A stretch of DNA of 64,000 nt from Vicinamibacteria bacterium (lineage in GTDB: Bacteria > Acidobacteriota > Vicinamibacteria > Marinacidobacterales > Marinacidobacteraceae), in assembly GCA_964291235.2 (NCBI GenBank), contig OZ219816.1:896001-960000 (forward strand). Direction: 5' to 3'. Made by a program: the position numbers and the translations under genes. Below are positions 11,122-16,340 of this stretch, one piece after another (the first letter of the stretch is position 1; each line of letters opens with the position of its first letter). A model generated the notes under the pieces. That model ran no database searches. It was given only the letters and a program-made list of their open reading frames with translations, and was not told where the DNA came from.

Positions 11122-11328
11122 TCGCGCGCCGCCGGCGGCGGCGGATGCACCGTTTCTGACTCGGGCGCCGGGGACCGCGGTCCGTCGCAGGGCGTGCTCC
11201 GGAATTCGCCGGCCCGGCGGCTCGCGACGGGGTGGCGTGAGTCGGGTGTCCGGGTGGGATCGCGCCGTCTTCCCAAATTGGACTGGGGACTTCGCAATCG
11301 ACTAGGCTGGGGCGGTGGGGCTCCCAAC

Positions 11329-12483
11329 ATGAGGCCGATCGGCGCAGCGGTTCGATGGCGTCGCGGTCATGGCCGATCCCGGGGCCCGCTGCTCCTGGTC
11401 CCGATGGCCGTTTCCCTCTCCTGCGGGGGCGGCGACGGCGCCGGCACACCGGCCACTCCCCAGGCGCCCCGACCCGCCCCGCGTCAGCTCATCGGCATGG
11501 AGATCTTCGCCGAACAGAGGTCGATCCGGGTCGGACAGGTGTCGAGCCCGCTGGTCGTCTATGGCGAATTCGACGACGGCACCTCCGGTACGGTGAACGT
11601 GATCTGGACGTCCTCGGATCCCAGCGTGGCCGAGGTGGCGGAGGACGGGACGGTGACCGGGGCCGGAGTCGGGATGGCCACCATCACCGCTTCGTTTGAG
11701 GGGTTTACGGCGACGATCGAGCTGGCGGTCGATGAGGCGAACGTCCGCGCCACTCGGGACCGGCCGGACGACTTCGCCGGGCCGCAGATCCACGTCGTCT
11801 ATGCGCTGCCCAGCGACGGCGAAGATCTGAACTTCGACCGCTACGGGGATATCGCCAGGTCTTTCGAGCAGATTCAGGACTGGTTGATGGATGACATCGG
11901 CTATCGGTTCCGCCTGGACACGCACGCCGGGGAACTGGACGTGAGTTTTCTGCGACTCCGGGCCACGAGTCAGGAGATTCGGGCCACGGGGATATTCGAT
12001 GTCGTCTCCTTCATCCACGAGGGCATAGAGGCCCAGGTGGGGTTGGTGCAAGACAAGGTGTACGCGGCGTACTACTTTGGGGAGTCGACGTTTGGCGGAG
12101 TGGGCCATTCGGTGCTGCGGCTCGGCACCACGATGGTGGACCCGAACTACCGCTCCCGGTACCTGCCCGGGCGCTACCCCGATGGGGCGGGGTATTTTGA
12201 ACAGGTAATGGTCCACGAGTTGTTCCACGTGTTTGGCGCCGTCCCCAGTTGCGCCCCGAATGAAGGACTCGGGGCTCACGTCACCGATTCCGGCGAGGAT
12301 CTGATGTTCGCGGGAATCTACGAAGACCCCGCCGACAGTGTCGGGAATGTGGCGATTGACGTTGGGCGTGACGACTACTTCGAGCATGGACGGAGCGACT
12401 GCCCTGATCTCGCGGACAGCCGGTATTGGGAGCGGGTTGGCCCGGGACGCGCCGCAGCCGGTACCCCGGAGAGCCGACGTTAG
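11329..12483 (+). CDS. Lipoprotein with Big_2 Ig-like domain and HExxH metallopeptidase domain
   Basis: SLS-CGGG lipobox, WTSSDPSVAEVAEDGTVTGAGVGMATITA (Big_2), HELFHVFG, DLMF; start approximate. Confidence 0.7.
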   Translation: MRPIGAAVRWRRGHGRSRGPLLLVPMAVSLSCGGGDGAGTPATPQAPRPAPRQLIGMEIFAEQRSIRVGQVSSPLVVYGEFDDGTSGTVNVIWTSSDPSVAEVAEDGTVTGAGVGMATITASFEGFTATIELAVDEANVRATRDRPDDFAGPQIHVVYALPSDGEDLNFDRYGDIARSFEQIQDWLMDDIGYRFRLDTHAGELDVSFLRLRATSQEIRATGIFDVVSFIHEGIEAQVGLVQDKVYAAYYFGESTFGGVGHSVLRLGTTMVDPNYRSRYLPGRYPDGAGYFEQVMVHELFHVFGAVPSCAPNEGLGAHVTDSGEDLMFAGIYEDPADSVGNVAIDVGRDDYFEHGRSDCPDLADSRYWERVGPGRAAAGTPESRR

Positions 12484-12824
12484 CCGGGATTTCTCATACT
12501 GCCGCCGTAGAGGTCGCCGCGGGATGGTGCCCCTCTCGGCGGGACCCCCACCAGGGGGCCTTCGCCGGGAGTTCGCCGGGAGCACTGGGCACGGCCCCCC
12601 TAGCGTTGATGTCGCAAAGGCCAGGGAACGCCGGCCTCCAGGCCGGCACAGCCCGCCGCAGGCGGGCGGCGGGATGGGCCTGGCTGGCCGGGGTGGCTCC
12701 CTCTGTGGGAGGGGATCCCGTGAGCGCGAGCGGCGAGGAACCGCCGGCGGCGCTACGCGCCGCTGTGCCGACCTGGAGGTCGGCCCAGTTCTCCCGGTGG
12801 ACTTTCCACGAGAACGCAAGAGCG

Positions 12825-14087
12825 TTAGGCGGCCCTCCGCTTCTGGGAGAAGTTGGGATCAAAGAGGGTTCGGTTCCGGGCCATCGCGCACAGCACCCGG
12901 AGTTGTTGATCCGCGATGCTCCGGTGGCGCCGGGCCGTGTGCTTCCCTTCCGCCTTCAACTTCCGGTTGTAGGCCGCCACCTTCTCGTCCCAGCGGACGA
13001 CCCCCCGCGCCAGGATGTAGGTGGCGTGTTGCAGCGAACTGGGAACGGCGCGCCGTTGCCGGAGCTGTGCGGACTTGCCGGACTGGTCCTCGATCGGGGC
13101 TACTCCACAGTAGGCGCGCAGACGGCGGTAGTTCCCCTCCGAGAGCGCTTCGAAGCCCCAGGCGAACAACCGGGCCAGCGCCTTGTCCCCCGCGCCCGGG
13201 CGTGAGCGCAACGCGCTCACCAGATCCAGGCCCGTGGCATCCGAACCACCCCCGGCCTCCGCCGTCTCCGAGAACTCGTCCAGCAGCTGGGTCATCTGGC
13301 CCTCCGCCCGGACGAGTTCCGCTCGCACGACCTCCAACTGTGCGAGCGCCGTGCGGATCGTCTCCACCGACGCCTCGGTCGCCCCCGGCGCCATCACCAA
13401 CGCCGGCTCCCGGAACAACGCCTGGATCCGCGCGGCGCTGATCCGGGTCACTCCATACCGCCGAACCAGCTTCTCCAACGTGGACAACCACACCTTCCGC
13501 GCTTTCGCCGGCGTAGAAGCCCGAGCCCACAACTCCCGGAAGAACGGAGTCCCCAGGTTCTTCGCCTCGCCGGCTACCTCCAGCAGTTGCGGGAAGTAGT
13601 CCACCAGCGCACTCCGGATCCGCAGGCACTGCCGGACCTGCTCCTGGAGCAGACGGTCCGCCGTCCGGGTCCGCTCCCGCAGCCGCAGCACCAACCCCGG
13701 TAGCGGCACCAGCAGCCGGAACCCCGCCAGGCTCGCCTGCAGCGTGGTGGCCAACATCCGGGCGTCCCGCCGGTCGTTCTTGTGCCCCGGGTGGGAGATG
13801 AACTTCCGCAGGTGGCTCGTCTGCCGCGGGTTCACCGCATAGACCGCAAACCCCGCCTCCAGCAGCGTCGCCACCACCGCCCCATCCGGCCGCTCGATCG
13901 CGACCGCCACCCGCGCCGGCGGCACACCCGTCTGCTTCCTAAGCCACTTCACCAGGGCCGCCAGCCCCGATCCCTTGTGCGCGAAGGCGCGCTCCCCGCG
14001 CACCTTCCCGCGCCTGTCGCACAGGCACACCTGGTGGCTCTGCTCGCCCCAGTCGATGCCCACGAACCAGCTCAGCTTCTGCTTCAT
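12825..14087 (-). CDS. IS110 family transposase/recombinase (DEDD RuvC-like plus Tnp20 domain)
   Basis: FVGIDW, VAIER, KNDRRDA (D-E-D-D) and AYCGVAPIEDQSGK with catalytic Ser; RBS-like AAGGAAG; no stops. Confidence 0.95.
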   Translation of the reverse strand: MKQKLSWFVGIDWGEQSHQVCLCDRRGKVRGERAFAHKGSGLAALVKWLRKQTGVPPARVAVAIERPDGAVVATLLEAGFAVYAVNPRQTSHLRKFISHPGHKNDRRDARMLATTLQASLAGFRLLVPLPGLVLRLRERTRTADRLLQEQVRQCLRIRSALVDYFPQLLEVAGEAKNLGTPFFRELWARASTPAKARKVWLSTLEKLVRRYGVTRISAARIQALFREPALVMAPGATEASVETIRTALAQLEVVRAELVRAEGQMTQLLDEFSETAEAGGGSDATGLDLVSALRSRPGAGDKALARLFAWGFEALSEGNYRRLRAYCGVAPIEDQSGKSAQLRQRRAVPSSLQHATYILARGVVRWDEKVAAYNRKLKAEGKHTARRHRSIADQQLRVLCAMARNRTLFDPNFSQKRRAA

Positions 14088-14124
14088 CGCTGTCTTCCTT
14101 CGAGCTTGCGCTCCGTCGGAGGTC

Positions 14125-14322
14125 CGCCGCGCCGCGATGCTGTCCAGCCCCTATACTGGTTCTCGATTGGAACCGACTCTCCACTGGTCGTCCATCACGG
14201 CCATCCGTCGGGGTACGTGTCCACCGTAGGTGCTCGCAGCACCGGGGCTCAGTTAGTACTCCCGGCGGATTGGCCAACCTGAGTTGATACAACGGCAGCT
14301 GAATCTCAGCTCCCGCAGGACG
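14125..14322 (-). ncRNA. Predicted IS110 bridge RNA
   Basis: 5' hairpin AGCTGA-GAT-TCAGCT; target loop GAGCCCC-[GGTGCTGCGAGCACC]-TA-CGGTGG; donor loop GTGGAGAGTC-[GGTTC...GAACC]-AG-TATAGG; guides match flanks and ends; transcript ends approximate. Confidence 0.8.
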
Positions 14323-14555
14323 TCGCCGATCCTATAGGGGGCTCCCGTGCCTTCACGCTGTCCGTGCAGTTGCGGCCCGCCCCTGGCGAGTGTCTCCCAA
14401 CATCGTTGACAGGTTGGCGTGATCTGCGCGGCACCTTGGGCCATGGGTATGAAAAATCCGGCGTTGGAAGCTTCCCCCGCGCGAGCGGCCGTTTCGCTGC
14501 GGTGCGCATTGACACCGTACGGGCCAGGCCGACGGCAGCGTGTTGGCTGCCGGTC

Positions 14556-16340
14556 TCAGCGCCGGAGCGAGAACGGGTGGATCCGCCAGAAGTGGGCGCG
14601 GTAGCTGAAGACGGTGAAGGCGATCCGGTCGCCGAGCGGCGACCACGCGGGCTGGGTCTTGTGGGTGGGGTCCGAGGTGACCTGCTCCGCCGCTCCCCCG
14701 CCCAGCGGAACCCGGAAGATCTGGAAGAACCCGTCATCGGCGCGGTCGACGTAGGCCGCCCAGCGGCCGTCCGGTGAGACCCCGATCCCGGAGTGGATCT
14801 GGTCGGAGCCGAACTCGTGGAAGCGGGTGGGCTCGCCGCCGGTGCGCGGCACCGTCCAGAGGCTCTTCCGGCCGACCGCCGCCGCGGACTCGAACAGGAG
14901 CGTGTCCCCGGCATCCGCCCACTCGGCCTGGATCACGTCCTCCGGGAACCCTTCGAGCGGCACCTGCTGCTGGGGCTCCGTGACCTCGCCCGTCTCCTGG
15001 TCCACCCCGATCACGTAGAGCCCGCCGTGCCGGGCGCCGGTCTCGTCGCGCCGGTAGCTGGTGAAGACCACGAAGCGGCCGTCCGGGGACCAGCGCGCCC
15101 AGCCGGTCTCGTGCCCGTCCTCGCTGATCTGGCGGGCCCCGCTGCCGTCGGCCGCCATCAGCCAGATGTCGTCCGAGTTCTCGTGGGTGTGGAAAACGAT
15201 CCAGCGCCCGTTCGGGGACCACTGCATCCCCTGGTCCTCGGAGTAGGACTGCCGGACGATCCGCCGGGGTTCGCGGTGTGGCGTCTCGACGCTCACCGGA
15301 ACCGTGCCCAGGTGCTGGGCGATGTCCGGATAGTGGATGTCGTCCGTGACGTGCCGCCAACTCCCGAAGGTAAACGCGACCTCGCCGCCGTCCGGGCTCC
15401 AGGTCGGAGTCTCCGACTGGAACGCGGTCAGCGGCTCGGAGGGGCCGCCCTCCGCGGAAACGGTCGCGAGGAATACCCGGTAGTCCTGGCTCTTGAAGAC
15501 CACCTCGCCGCCCGCTCCCACTGAGGGTGCGTACGCATCGCGCGCGAAACGACTGAGCCGCGTGCGCCGCCCGCCGCTCACCCGGCGCATCCAGAGGTCG
15601 AGGAAGCCGCCTTCCCCCGGGACCCCGTAGATCACCGATTCCCCGTCCGGCGAGAAGGCGATGCGTCCGTAGGCTTCCTGGTCGTCGAAGAGCGGCTCGG
15701 GGGCGGAACACGGGAGATGCAGGTGTTGGCCTTCCCCCGTGCGGACGAGGCAGGCGATCTGTCCGTCGGGAGACCAGGCCGGGAATGCGAGGCGCTCCCC
15801 GGTGGCCTGGACCGCGGCGTTTCCGCCTTCGGCGTCGAGCGCCCAGACGGTCGAAACGCCGTCCGTCCGCGTCACGCCGGCGATCGCGGCGCCATCCGGG
15901 GACCAGCTCAGTTGCGCGAGCGCCCCGGTTGCCGGCGTGGCGTCCGCCGGACGGTCGGGCCACAGCGGACGTCGGCTGCCGTCGGCCCGGTCATGAATCC
16001 ACCATTCCTGAAGGCTGCGGTCGAAGACGTTTTCGTGCACCAGCACCCGGCGGCTATCCGGGAACCAGGTCAGATACCGGATGGACGCCGTCCCCGGACC
16101 GATCCGCTGGGCGGCGCCGCCGGCGGAGGGCGCGAAACGGATCCGGCCGCGTTCCAGGGTCGCGAGCCAGTTCCCATCGGGCGAGATCGCCCCCACCGGG
16201 TCGCGGTAGGCGACGGGGCCCGCCTGATCGGCGGTGGCCAGGTAGTGGAGCGGCGGGAGGGTGCCGCGTTCGGGCCGATCCCCGCCGCAGGCGGCGAGGA
16301 GGAAGAGAGCGGCGCCGGCGAGACAGGGGATTCCGCGCAT
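14556..16340 (-). CDS. TolB-like (PD40 repeat) beta-propeller lipoprotein
   Basis: Lipobox LLAA-C; many P.WSPDG / FSPDG repeats. Confidence 0.82.
   Translation of the reverse strand: MRGIPCLAGAALFLLAACGGDRPERGTLPPLHYLATADQAGPVAYRDPVGAISPDGNWLATLERGRIRFAPSAGGAAQRIGPGTASIRYLTWFPDSRRVLVHENVFDRSLQEWWIHDRADGSRRPLWPDRPADATPATGALAQLSWSPDGAAIAGVTRTDGVSTVWALDAEGGNAAVQATGERLAFPAWSPDGQIACLVRTGEGQHLHLPCSAPEPLFDDQEAYGRIAFSPDGESVIYGVPGEGGFLDLWMRRVSGGRRTRLSRFARDAYAPSVGAGGEVVFKSQDYRVFLATVSAEGGPSEPLTAFQSETPTWSPDGGEVAFTFGSWRHVTDDIHYPDIAQHLGTVPVSVETPHREPRRIVRQSYSEDQGMQWSPNGRWIVFHTHENSDDIWLMAADGSGARQISEDGHETGWARWSPDGRFVVFTSYRRDETGARHGGLYVIGVDQETGEVTEPQQQVPLEGFPEDVIQAEWADAGDTLLFESAAAVGRKSLWTVPRTGGEPTRFHEFGSDQIHSGIGVSPDGRWAAYVDRADDGFFQIFRVPLGGGAAEQVTSDPTHKTQPAWSPLGDRIAFTVFSYRAHFWRIHPFSLRR

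What the first reader, a model, noticed from the sequence alone, without database searches (positions are those of the whole stretch)
12799..14345. IS110 element with a fully decodable bridge RNA: all four guides match its own donor and target around a CC core
Seen in sequence (minus-strand sense): the left flank reads CACGGGAGCCC-CC-TATAGG and the right junction GTGGAAAGT-CC-ACCGGG. This gives an empty target GGGAGCCC|CC|ACCG and a circular donor GTGGAAAGT|CC|TATA. The non-coding region upstream of the transposase has two internal loops, each split by a small hairpin. Loop 1 holds GAGCCCC (14250-14244; left target plus first core C) and CGGTGG (14226-14221; reverse complement of CC+ACCG). Loop 2 holds GTGGAGAGTC (14184-14175; left donor plus first core C, one G/A difference) and TATAGG (14155-14150; reverse complement of CC+TATA). 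Established: this is the target-binding/donor-binding loop architecture of IS621-type bridge RNAs. Inference: an intact RNA-guided recombinase with a CC rather than CT core, a larger (420 aa) recombinase and apparently 6-nt right guides, so a candidate new programmable orthologue. The mechanism class is known; this member may not be.
Basis: partly seen in the sequence, partly recalled or inferred. Interest (0 to 1): 0.9.

Follow-up and report, generated by a model that had tools for sequence, protein, structure and literature searches.

The report
IS110 element with readable bridge RNA
This is an intact, five-copy IS110-family insertion sequence whose left end encodes a bridge RNA that spells out both its own ends and its insertion site; it is a clean new example of a mechanism described in 2024, not a new mechanism.

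Summary
The element is 1536 bp plus a CC core at each junction. It occurs 5 times in this genome, always in the same repeat. Unoccupied copies of that repeat carry a single CC at the insertion point. The 420-aa ORF has both IS110 Pfam domains, invariant DEDD and Ser-Gly residues, and a predicted fold closest to the IS621 and ISCro4 recombinases. The 249-nt left end folds into a 5' hairpin and two stem-loops with internal loops. In 13 relatives, 11 of 32 pairs show compensatory changes. The four guides in correct order were matched by 0 of 20,000 random genomic windows. Across relatives with other targets, both target guides change with their own flanks: 0 of 200,000 permutations for the left guide, and only the identity among 5,040 for the right. 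Handshake bases and a split promoter across the circle junction are also present. Novelty is modest: a new member of a known kind from a divergent, probably acidobacterial, CC-core clade. No RNA or activity data exist.

The parts
12801..14336 (-). Body of the insertion sequence (1536 bp) between the two CC cores
   Evidence: Five copies of 1536 nt with 0, 1, 1, 17 and 17 differences over 1540 compared positions. Empty sites define the ends.
14337..14338 (-). Left copy of the CC core
   Evidence: Present at both junctions of 5 of 5 copies. A single CC is present in empty sites.
12799..12800 (-). Right copy of the CC core
14339..14346 (-). Left target flank GGGAGCCC. The last 6 nt plus the first core C are matched by the left target guide.
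12787..12798 (-). Right target flank, part of a dispersed repeat. The first 4 nt (ACCG, 12798-12795) plus the core are matched by the right target guide.
12814..12819 (-). TTGCGT, a -35-like hexamer in the right end. It becomes half of a promoter only in the circular form.
   Evidence: Fixed register TTGnnn-17 nt-TAnnnT in 12 of 12 representatives. Coordinates.
14329..14334 (-). TAGGAT, a -10-like hexamer at left-end positions 3-8
   Evidence: No sigma-70-like site is found in the linear DNA.
14297..14311 (-). 5' stem-loop of the bridge RNA
   Evidence: The U-A pair becomes C-G in copies L004 and L005 (positions 30 and 38). The two changes occur together in contigs of 3 runs.
14203..14270 (-). 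Target-binding stem-loop (outer stem 14270-14256 with 14216-14203)
   Evidence: The outer stem has 11 pairs, 5 of them with changes on both sides.
14244..14250 (-). Left target guide GAGCCCC, same sense as the target top strand (6 nt of left target + first core C)
14229..14243 (-). Small hairpin that splits the target-binding loop
14221..14226 (-). Right target guide CGGUGG, the reverse complement of CC+ACCG
14219..14220 (-). Handshake bases AC of the target loop. They are complementary to the last two donor bases (GT) before the core, not to the target's own CC.
   Evidence: Rule taken from PMC11208158.
14131..14202 (-). Donor-binding stem-loop
14175..14184 (-). Left donor guide GUGGAGAGUC (9 nt of right end + first core C, with one G.T wobble)
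14158..14174 (-). Small hairpin that splits the donor-binding loop
   Evidence: 3 of its 4 pairs have changes on both sides.
14150..14155 (-). Right donor guide UAUAGG, the reverse complement of CC+TATA
14148..14149 (-). Handshake bases GG of the donor loop, complementary to the last two target bases (CC) before the core
12801..12809 (-). Left donor (last 9 nt of the right end), GTGGAAAGT
14331..14336 (-). Right donor (first 6 nt of the left end), TATAGG; TATA is matched by the guide
14094..14101 (-). GAAGGAAG, a ribosome-binding-site-like purine run 6 nt before the ATG
   Evidence: Read directly from the sequence. Inference only.
12825..14087 (-). Recombinase gene (420 aa + stop): RuvC-like DEDD domain, long helical linker, Tnp domain

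Best explanation
This is an intact insertion sequence of the IS110 group of the IS110 family. It works like IS621. After excision to a circle, the right and left ends join through one CC, which brings a -35-like box (right end) and a -10-like box (left end) together. The left end is then transcribed into a bridge RNA of roughly 190-200 nt. The first internal loop of that RNA reads the genomic target GAGCCC|CC|ACCG. Its 5' side pairs with the bottom strand and its 3' side pairs with the top strand. The second internal loop reads the element's own joined ends GTGGAAAGT|CC|TATA in the same way. Two bases after each right guide can pair with the other DNA partner once the top strands have been exchanged (handshake). 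The 420-aa DEDD/Ser recombinase would hold both RNA loops and both DNAs, then cut and rejoin at the CC. The element is thereby inserted into one family of a dispersed genomic repeat. Shown here: the ends, core, empty sites, copy number, protein family and catalytic residues, conserved RNA structure, guide matches and their covariation with flanks. Inferred: transcription, RNA-protein binding, strand-exchange chemistry and current activity.
For: ELEMENT. There are 5 copies with identical ends and a CC at both junctions. There are 21 unoccupied exact 12-nt footprints with a single CC.

PROTEIN. PF01548 scores 4.6e-28 and PF02371 scores 1.4e-8, both above their gathering cut-offs. D12, E65, D105, D108, S336 and G337 are invariant in 14 of 14 relatives; they correspond in order and spacing to IS621 D11, E60, D102, D105, S241, G242 (PMC11208158). 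The AlphaFold model has mean pLDDT 85.6. Its 10 best Foldseek hits in the PDB are all IS621 or ISCro4 recombinase chains, with E 3.6e-11 to 1.2e-9 and target-normalised TM 0.63-0.66.

RNA STRUCTURE. The fold has a 5' hairpin plus two stem-loops with internal loops. In 13 sequences, 96.1% of cells are paired against 88.1% in shuffles (0 of 500 shuffles as high) and 28.9-46.6% when partners are slid. 11 of 32 pairs have changes on both sides (1 of 500 shuffles). Within this genome, the 5' hairpin has one U-A to C-G swap between copies.

GUIDES. The strand rule matches Durrant et al.. 0 of 20,000 random genomic windows and 0 of 20,000 shuffles reach the observed ordered match. For the left target guide against left flanks in 10 groups, the own-flank run averages 6.8 nt and other-flank runs average 1.14 nt; 0 of 200,000 permutations reach the observed sum. 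For the right target guide in 7 groups, the values are 4.29 and 0.50 nt, and 1 of 5,040 permutations (the identity) reaches the sum. L041 was not used for the alignment or model; its right guide matches its own right flank over 6 of 6 positions.

HANDSHAKE. The first base after the right donor guide pairs with the last left-target base in 9 of 12 groups, through G:C, U:A and C:G pairs; 90 of 100,000 shuffles do as well.

PROMOTER. TTGnnn-17 nt-TAnnnT spans the circle junction in 12 of 12 representatives.

COVARIANCE MODEL. It finds 5 hits in the genome, one per copy, and hits 29 of 30 relative loci. 11 of those 30 loci supplied training sequences, and several others are identical copies of them.
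Against: There is no RNA evidence and no activity evidence of any kind.

The window element's junction promoter is weak by consensus: 3 of 6 plus 4 of 6, below the 9 of 12 that the promoter scanner demands.

The single-sequence fold is not significantly more stable than shuffles (z -1.82).

The donor ends are nearly invariant across the clade. The donor guides therefore cannot be tested by covariation. In L013 and L015 the right end differs from the left donor guide at two positions with no matching change in the guide; those copies give only partial protein matches and may be decayed.

The left guides cover only the first core base. The next RNA base is G opposite the second core position.

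Three of 12 groups (G260a, G260b, G088) have no handshake pair at the first donor-loop position.

Copy L005 has a mismatch at the fourth right-target base.

21 perfect footprints remain unoccupied, so either activity is low or something beyond the 12 nt matters.

The NCBIfam model for IS110 RNA-guided transposases scores 139.7 against a cut-off of 140.

The relatives are kin, so the permutation figures overstate independence.
Confidence: 0.93

Rival explanations
1. The element is a genuine bridge-RNA IS110 by descent but is no longer mobile in this host. The copies would be recent fossils spread by an earlier burst or by duplication of the repeats that carry them.
For: The junction promoter is weak (7 of 12 consensus positions). 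21 perfect target footprints are unoccupied. No circle junction was seen in contigs of 4 runs, although contigs would not show a rare circle. Two copies (L004, L005) share about 70 nt of similar upstream flank.
Against: All five ORFs are intact, and three copies differ by at most 1 nt in 1540. Catalytic residues are intact. The guides still match donor and target. The flanks beyond the repeat differ among copies, so at least several insertions are independent.
Confidence: 0.12
2. The left end is only a structured mRNA leader that regulates transposase expression. On this view the recombinase protein alone recognises the repeat, and the guide-like matches are by-products of the element's ends and of the repeat's sequence.
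For: Small RNAs were once thought to modulate expression in the IS110-family member ISPpu9 (mentioned in PMC11208160). The region lies directly upstream of the ORF. No Rfam family matches it: 5 hits, all with E above 1 and far below their gathering scores.
Against: Both sides of the first loop change with the flanks in relatives that use other targets, in a fixed register and with the strand rule of IS621. The handshake position also tracks the target. The loops are the variable parts, while the stems keep pairing through compensatory changes. A leader element would not need to spell out the insertion site.
Confidence: 0.03
3. The element belongs to the IS1111 group and uses a right-end RNA (seekRNA-type).
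For: It has the same Pfam domains, and like many IS1111 and IS110 members it targets a repeat.
Against: The right end is only 24 nt after the stop codon (12824-12801), whereas the left end is 249 nt. No long subterminal inverted repeats are visible at the ends. The guide-bearing structure lies in the left end. Durrant et al. place the RNA in the left end for the IS110 group and in the right end for IS1111.
Confidence: 0.01

Closest known systems
IS621 of Escherichia coli (bridge RNA and recombinase; Durrant et al. 2024, PMC11208160; Hiraizumi et al. 2024, PMC11208158; PDB 8WT6-8WT9)
   Same: Left-end RNA with a 5' hairpin and two internal-loop stem-loops. The 5' loop side reads like the top strand and the 3' side is complementary to it. 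A dinucleotide core sits at both junctions. Handshake bases follow each right guide. A split promoter forms across the circle junction. The protein has DEDD + Ser-Gly residues and a RuvC / coiled-coil / Tnp fold.
   Different: The core is CC, not CT. The left guides reach only the first core base. The right target guide is 6 nt, against 4 nt in natural IS621 (passage: G77-G80). The protein is 420 aa against 326 aa; the excess lies between two long helices (a helical cluster at about 166-225 in the model). Identity in the structural alignment is only about 20%, and phmmer gives E 3.3e-6. The host genome is 68% G+C, and the nearest named records are Vicinamibacteria MAGs.
ISCro4 / IS622 of Citrobacter rodentium (PDB 9T56; bioRxiv 10.1101/2025.05.14.653916)
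   Same: It is the best sequence hit in the PDB (E 2.6e-7) and has the same fold. Its RNA has the same parts, including handshake guides (passages).
   Different: It has a CT core, a 341-residue chain, and a close relationship to IS621. The element here is from a distant clade.
ISPpu10 of Pseudomonas putida (bioRxiv 10.64898/2026.03.19.712850; abstract and outline only)
   Same: An IS110 element that inserts only into copies of one conserved intergenic repeat. According to the abstract, a stem-loop next to the target is a second specificity determinant. Here all 5 insertions are in repeat copies that have a hairpin-forming tail. In several relatives the left target is the 3' arm of a G+C-rich hairpin.
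   Different: In ISPpu10 the stem-loop is a 5' extension of the target. In the window element the candidate hairpin lies 3' of the core. The association here is post hoc and rests on 5 insertions.
IS1111-group elements with right-end guide RNAs
   Same: The same transposase family and the same principle of RNA-guided site choice.
   Different: In that group the RNA is in the right end and there are long subterminal inverted repeats. Neither is the case here.

Membership tests
IS110 family, IS110 group (bridge-RNA-guided insertion sequences) | N-terminal RuvC-like DEDD transposase domain with all four acidic residues | tested here: met
   PF01548 covers residues 9-166 at E 4.6e-28, 98.4 bits against a cut-off of 29. 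D12, E65, D105 and D108 are invariant in 14 of 14 relatives.
IS110 family, IS110 group (bridge-RNA-guided insertion sequences) | C-terminal Tnp domain with the conserved Ser-Gly | tested here: met
   PF02371 covers residues 292-373 at 35.4 bits against a cut-off of 21.3. S336-G337 is invariant. It aligns to the SG of ISCro4.
IS110 family, IS110 group (bridge-RNA-guided insertion sequences) | Overall fold like the solved bridge recombinases | tested here: met
   The top 10 Foldseek hits are IS621 and ISCro4 chains, with E 3.6e-11 to 1.2e-9 and TMt 0.63-0.66. The model's mean pLDDT is 85.6.
IS110 family, IS110 group (bridge-RNA-guided insertion sequences) | NCBIfam equivalog NF033542 'IS110 family RNA-guided transposase' above its curated cut-off | tested here: inconclusive
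   139.7 bits against a cut-off of 140, over profile positions 1-342 of 343. It is 0.3 bit short, which marks a divergent clade. The cut-off is a curation threshold, not a biological feature.
IS110 family, IS110 group (bridge-RNA-guided insertion sequences) | Short core at both junctions and once in the empty site; no terminal inverted repeats | tested here: met
   CC is at both junctions of 5 of 5 copies, and a single CC is in the 21 empty footprints. The two ends are not inverted repeats of each other (read).
IS110 family, IS110 group (bridge-RNA-guided insertion sequences) | Long left non-coding end and short right end | tested here: met
   The left end is 249 nt (14336-14088) and the right end is 24 nt (12824-12801).
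IS110 family, IS110 group (bridge-RNA-guided insertion sequences) | Left-end RNA with a 5' stem-loop and two stem-loops with internal loops, conserved by covariation | tested here: met
   32 pairs, 11 with changes on both sides, 96.1% of cells paired against 28.9-46.6% when partners are slid.
IS110 family, IS110 group (bridge-RNA-guided insertion sequences) | The first loop matches the target (5' side same sense as the top strand, 3' side complementary, core included) and covaries with it | tested here: met
   7 + 6 nt in the window element. Covariation across 10 groups (left) and 7 groups (right). The left guide includes only the first core base.
IS110 family, IS110 group (bridge-RNA-guided insertion sequences) | The second loop matches the joined ends of the element | tested here: met
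   10 nt with one G.T wobble, plus 6 nt. Covariation is not testable because the ends are nearly invariant in the clade. L013 and L015 show two unmatched positions.
IS110 family, IS110 group (bridge-RNA-guided insertion sequences) | Handshake bases that pair with the non-cognate DNA and not with the cognate one | tested here: met
   Target loop AC against donor GT; donor loop GG against target CC. The first donor-loop handshake base pairs in 9 of 12 groups, and 90 of 100,000 shuffles do as well.
IS110 family, IS110 group (bridge-RNA-guided insertion sequences) | [quoted passage not shown] | tested here: inconclusive
   TTGnnn-17-TAnnnT is in a fixed register in 12 of 12 representatives. In the window element it matches only 7 of 12 consensus positions. 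No transcription data exist.
IS110 family, IS110 group (bridge-RNA-guided insertion sequences) | The RNA is made, binds the recombinase and directs recombination | not testable with these tools
   No RNA run holds the stretch. Only assembled contigs could be laid.
IS1111 group | Guide RNA in a long right end, with subterminal inverted repeats of 7-17 bp | tested here: not met
   The right end is 24 nt. The guide-bearing structure is in the left end. Criteria are from PMC11208160.

The most novel reading that the evidence does not exclude
The clade to which this element belongs may be a distinct subtype of bridge recombinase, not just another orthologue. Four features point that way. The core is a fixed CC. 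The left guides stop at the first core base. A helical cluster of about 60 residues is inserted between the two long coiled-coil helices. Target choice may be gated by a DNA hairpin next to the guide footprint: 5 of 5 insertions are in repeat copies with a hairpin-forming tail, while 14 perfect footprints without that tail are all empty.
Probability: 0.15. Interest if true: 0.5.

Novelty: new member of a known kind. Interest (0 to 1): 0.3.

Why it matters
The element adds a fully readable, apparently intact bridge-recombinase system from a high-G+C, probably acidobacterial, lineage far from the characterised enterobacterial ones (about 20% identity to IS621). It has a natural CC core and naturally longer right guides. 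Durrant et al. report that non-CT cores worked less well with IS621 and that longer right guides helped. A natural CC-core enzyme could therefore widen the set of sites that can be addressed. The dozen related elements found here use different targets and share conserved donor ends, which makes a compact natural data set for the guide rules. For the host genome, the element marks one repeat family as an insertion hot spot. None of this changes the known mechanism.

Tried and rejected
RFAM. Searching 12600-14600 at E up to 10 gave 5 hits, all with E above 1 and far below their gathering scores. No curated bridge-RNA family matched.

SEQUENCING RUNS. 7 rows in 4 studies hold the stretch or part of it, and no RNA holder is listed. 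Contigs of 4 runs from 3 studies were laid. No 'goes back' joint of the kind a circle junction would give was seen. One contig in X5 joins 12797 to 14337 with one other letter between (depth 2.8, side 26, likeness threshold 90). I read it as an unoccupied paralogous repeat copy, not as excision at this locus. Depth inside the element in X1 and X4 (about 196-376) is several times the flank depth (about 41), but the tool warns that this is not a copy number, so I make no claim from it.

LINEAR PROMOTER SCAN. It found 0 promoter-like and 0 terminator-like sites in 12700-14500. No 3' end of the RNA can be proposed from sequence.

DONOR-GUIDE COVARIATION. Not possible, because the ends are nearly invariant. 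L013 and L015, whose right end differs, do not show a matching guide change.

REPEAT CLASSIFICATION. The first two regex classifications were faulty: the class patterns overlapped or were wrong. Only the split 'has the GCCGRCCT tail or not' from the listing was used. That class was defined after seeing the occupied sites.

PREDICTED PAIR 39/63. RNAalifold proposed a pair between columns 39 and 63 that joins the two guide segments. I do not count it as structure.

LITERATURE. 'CC core' + IS110 gave 0 papers. 'bridge RNA' + 'CC dinucleotide' gave 0 papers. IS110 + Acidobacteriota gave 3 papers, none on this topic judging by their titles and abstract openings. Supplementary tables could not be opened; those of Durrant et al. 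list cores and guides for thousands of elements and may already contain CC-core members or this clade. So 'CC core not in print' holds only for these searches.

TOOLS NOT USED. The search for homologous proteins, the search of protein representatives, complex prediction and the protein-atlas search were not used, because the answer did not depend on them.
Full report
OBSERVATION. The left junction is ...GGGAGCCC-CC-TATAGG..., with the CC at 14338-14337. The right junction is ...GTGGAAAGT-CC-ACCGGG..., with the CC at 12800-12799. Upstream of the ORF lie GAGCCCC (14250-14244), CGGTGG (14226-14221), GTGGAGAGTC (14184-14175) and TATAGG (14155-14150).

COPIES AND ENDS. The window lies in a genome of 3.45 Mb in two contigs with 68% G+C. 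The element occurs five times. All five copies are 1536 nt between two CC dinucleotides. Relative to the window copy they differ at 0, 1, 1, 17 and 17 of 1540 compared positions. All five sit in the same context, GCA[C/A]GGGAGCCC|CC|...|CC|ACC[G/A]GGAGAACTGGGCCG.

Because the flanks themselves are repeated, copy-to-copy similarity cannot place the ends. Empty sites can. A 17-mer from the right flank occurs 135 times at up to 2 mismatches. The 12-nt footprint GAGCCC+CC+ACCG occurs 21 times uninterrupted, against about 3.7 expected from base composition. One empty copy has flanks almost identical to the window copy's two flanks, joined through a single CC.

PROTEIN. The 420-aa ORF (12825-14087, minus strand) matches PF01548 (DEDD_Tnp_IS110, 4.6e-28) and PF02371 (Transposase_20, 1.4e-8), both above their gathering scores. 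NCBIfam NF033542, named 'IS110 family RNA-guided transposase', scores 139.7 bits against a cut-off of 140. The protein is therefore at the edge of the curated model.

By sequence the only solved relatives are ISCro4 (E 2.6e-7) and IS621 (E 3.3e-6). In an alignment with 13 relatives of 32-81% identity, D12, E65, D105, D108, S336 and G337 are invariant. Hiraizumi et al. give D11, E60, D102, D105, S241 and G242 as the IS621 active-site residues (PMC11208158, passages read). The order and the D-x-x-D spacing agree.

An AlphaFold model built on that alignment has mean pLDDT 85.6. Its ten best PDB matches are all IS621 or ISCro4 chains, with E 3.6e-11 to 1.2e-9, target-normalised TM 0.63-0.66 and about 20% identity. 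TIGR-TasR and Nop5-type proteins follow.

The roughly 95 residues in excess of IS621 lie in the middle. Two long helices (131-164 and 236-272) flank a cluster of five short helices (166-225). The 14 relatives are 409-447 aa, so 420 aa is normal for this clade.

RNA STRUCTURE. The 251 nt from the left core to the start codon fold into three parts: a 5' hairpin (14311-14297), a stem-loop with an internal loop split by a small hairpin (14270-14203), and a second one of the same design (14202-14131). The fold energy alone is unremarkable (z -1.82; 8 of 200 shuffles fold at least as well).

The evidence for structure comes from relatives. I aligned this region from 13 elements: two variants from this genome and 11 others. 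RNAalifold predicts 32 pairs, and 11 of them have changes on both sides. On that structure 96.1% of cells are standard pairs, against 88.1% in column shuffles (0 of 500 as high) and 28.9-46.6% when partners are slid by 1-3 columns. The covariation score is 0.305 against 0.148 in shuffles (0 of 500 as high).

Within this genome, the two diverged copies carry U-to-C and A-to-G changes at the two sides of one pair of the 5' hairpin. The same two changes appear together in contigs of three runs.

A covariance model built from the alignment finds exactly five hits in the genome, one per copy and no orphans. It hits 29 of 30 relative loci; 11 of those loci supplied training sequences, and L014 has no hit.

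GUIDES IN THE WINDOW ELEMENT. Durrant et al. state three rules (PMC11208160, passages). [quoted passage not shown] The 3' side pairs with the top strand over 4-7 nt. The core is included. The four segments fit this geometry:
- Loop 1, 5' side equals 6 nt of left target plus the first core C.
- Loop 1, 3' side is the reverse complement of CC plus 4 nt of right target.
- Loop 2, 5' side equals 9 nt of the right end plus the first core C, with one RNA G opposite a bottom-strand T.
- Loop 2, 3' side is the reverse complement of CC plus the first 4 nt of the left end.

Counting exact matches only, in the right order and with 8-40 nt between the two sides of a loop, the sum is 23 nt. None of 20,000 random 241-nt windows of this genome reached it, and none of 20,000 shuffles of the left end did.

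GUIDES IN RELATIVES. One scan of species-representative genomes and one search of 401 genomes of the phylum gave relatives:
- 82% identity: six copies in a Vicinamibacteria MAG, with the same target and the same guides.
- 63% identity: a Candidatus Marinacidobacterium MAG.
- 62-67% identity: three partial matches in a second Vicinamibacteria MAG.
- 30-40% identity: nine further genomes of the phylum, most with several copies.

Ends were set from copy-to-copy comparison and from the conserved end motifs. Every locus with a recognisable end has ...GGTGGRRAGT|CC|TRTAS..., so CC is the core of the whole clade sampled. The one exception is L028, which has CT at the left and no recognisable right end.

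The flanks differ widely, and the loop sides follow them. Examples for the 3' side of loop 1, in a fixed 13-nt register: CGGU for ACCG (window), GGAGG for CCTCC, GCUG for CAGC, AAAA for TTTT, GGGGA for TCCCC, CACUG for CAGTG.

For the left guide (10 groups, best of three registers), the own-flank run averages 6.8 nt and other-flank runs average 1.14 nt; 0 of 200,000 permutations of the assignment reach the observed sum. For the right guide (7 groups with distinct right flanks, fixed register), the own-flank run averages 4.29 nt against 0.50, and only the identity among 5,040 permutations reaches the sum.

For these counts I used one copy per group and dropped three kinds of group. The first is groups with the same target as another: the 82% relative, and for the right guide G260b and G088. 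The second is groups without a located right end: L012 (found only later) and G332. The third is the divergent L024/L025 pair, whose first loop lies elsewhere.

L041 was not in the alignment. Its right guide matches its own right flank at 6 of 6 positions. The groups are related to each other, so these figures overstate independence. They nonetheless test assignment, not mere conservation.

HANDSHAKE BASES. Hiraizumi et al. describe two bases just 3' of each right guide. After top-strand exchange they pair with positions 6-7 of the other DNA, and they should not pair with their own DNA. In the window element the target loop has AC there, complementary to the donor's GT. The donor loop has GG, complementary to the target's CC. 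Neither pairs fully with its own DNA.

Across 12 groups the first donor-loop handshake base forms a Watson-Crick pair with the last left-target base in 9, through three pair types; 90 of 100,000 shuffles do as well. The three misses are G260a, G260b and G088.

PROMOTER. With the ends joined through one CC, a TTGnnn box in the right end lies exactly 17 nt upstream of a TAnnnT box at left-end positions 3-8 in 12 of 12 representatives. Several relatives have a perfect TTGACA. The window element has TTGCGT and TAGGAT, 7 of 12 consensus positions. The linear DNA has no promoter-like site by the scanner's criteria. This agrees with the junction promoter described for IS621, but it rests on consensus only.

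WHAT IT IS AND HOW IT WORKS. The element is an intact IS110-group insertion sequence with a bridge RNA that can be read off completely. The steps shown are anatomy, family, conserved structure, and guide matching with covariation. Transcription, ribonucleoprotein formation, cleavage at the CC and current mobility are inferred from IS621.

POINTS AGAINST OR LEFT OPEN. There are no RNA or activity data. The promoter is weak in this member. The left guides stop at the first core base. The donor guides cannot be tested by covariation, and L013/L015 show two unmatched donor positions. One copy has a mismatch at the fourth right-target base. 21 perfect footprints are unoccupied.

COMPARISON AND NOVELTY. 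The element meets every sequence-level criterion of the IS110 group that I could test. It fails those of the IS1111 group, which has a right-end RNA and long subterminal repeats. Relative to IS621 and ISCro4 it differs in the core (CC against CT), the reach of the left guides, the longer right target guide (6 against 4 nt), the larger middle domain and the lineage.

Durrant et al. already modelled thousands of orthologues, predicted a bridge RNA in 85.7% of ISfinder IS110-group entries, and noted longer right guides in some of them. The finding is therefore a new member of a known kind.

My searches for a CC core in print found nothing. The supplementary tables that would settle this were closed.

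SIDE OBSERVATION. All five insertions are in repeat copies whose right tail can form a hairpin (GCCGRCCT...AGGYCGGC). Seven of the 21 empty perfect footprints have that tail and 14 do not. The one-sided Fisher p is 0.012. The class was defined after the fact and there are only five insertions. A 2026 preprint on ISPpu10 reports, in its abstract, a target-adjacent stem-loop as a second specificity determinant. This is the basis of the more novel reading, to which I give a probability of about 0.15.

VERDICT. Confidence is 0.93 that this is a genuine bridge-RNA IS110 element. Interest is 0.3.

Noticed in passing
window 12700-12798 and 14339-14400; genome-wide (listing): The insertion site is part of a dispersed repeat family. 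The 17-mer ACCGGGAGAACTGGGCC occurs 135 times at up to 2 mismatches in the 3.45-Mb genome. It has several distinct tails and also occurs as tandem and inverted pairs. The same repeat flanks the related element in a Vicinamibacteria MAG (L007-L011), so it is shared between genomes.
   Followed up: partly
genome G000, 26 sites carrying the 12-nt footprint: All 5 occupied sites have a hairpin-forming right tail (GCCGRCCT...). Only 7 of the 21 empty perfect footprints have it (Fisher one-sided p = 0.012). The class was defined post hoc and the number of insertions is small. It may point to a structural determinant beside the guides.
   Followed up: partly
L006-L011 (Vicinamibacteria MAG), right end: The 82%-identical element has the same ends, core, target and guides, but is 1723-1724 nt long against 1536 nt. 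The extra roughly 190 nt of non-coding sequence lie between the stop codon and the right end.
   Followed up: no
L019, L022, L034 (groups G349, G186), left ends: These relatives have left ends about 170 nt longer. Extra G+C-rich hairpins lie between the element start and the first guide-bearing stem-loop.
   Followed up: no
L024, L025, L033 (groups G017, G035): The covariance model scores these much lower (58.8-67.3 bits, against 132-162 bits for the others). A segment identical to the left flank plus core lies far upstream of the donor loop, which suggests a rearranged or duplicated target-binding module.
   Followed up: partly
L013-L015 (second Vicinamibacteria MAG) and L028: These look like decayed copies. 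L013-L015 give protein matches only from residue 124-170 onward, L014 has no bridge-RNA hit, and L013/L015 have a right end that differs from the donor guide at two positions. L028 has CT instead of CC at the left core and no recognisable right end.
   Followed up: partly
alignment A1, columns 39 and 63: One column of the left target guide and one of the right target guide covary as if paired (CG 4, UA 4, GC 2). This probably arises because several targets are themselves partly palindromic, not because of an RNA pair.
   Followed up: no
window 14556-16340 (minus strand) and 11194-12483 (plus strand): The element lies between two long ORFs of 594 aa and 429 aa. It is inserted in the intergenic repeat, not in a gene. 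The neighbouring ORFs were not analysed.
   Followed up: no
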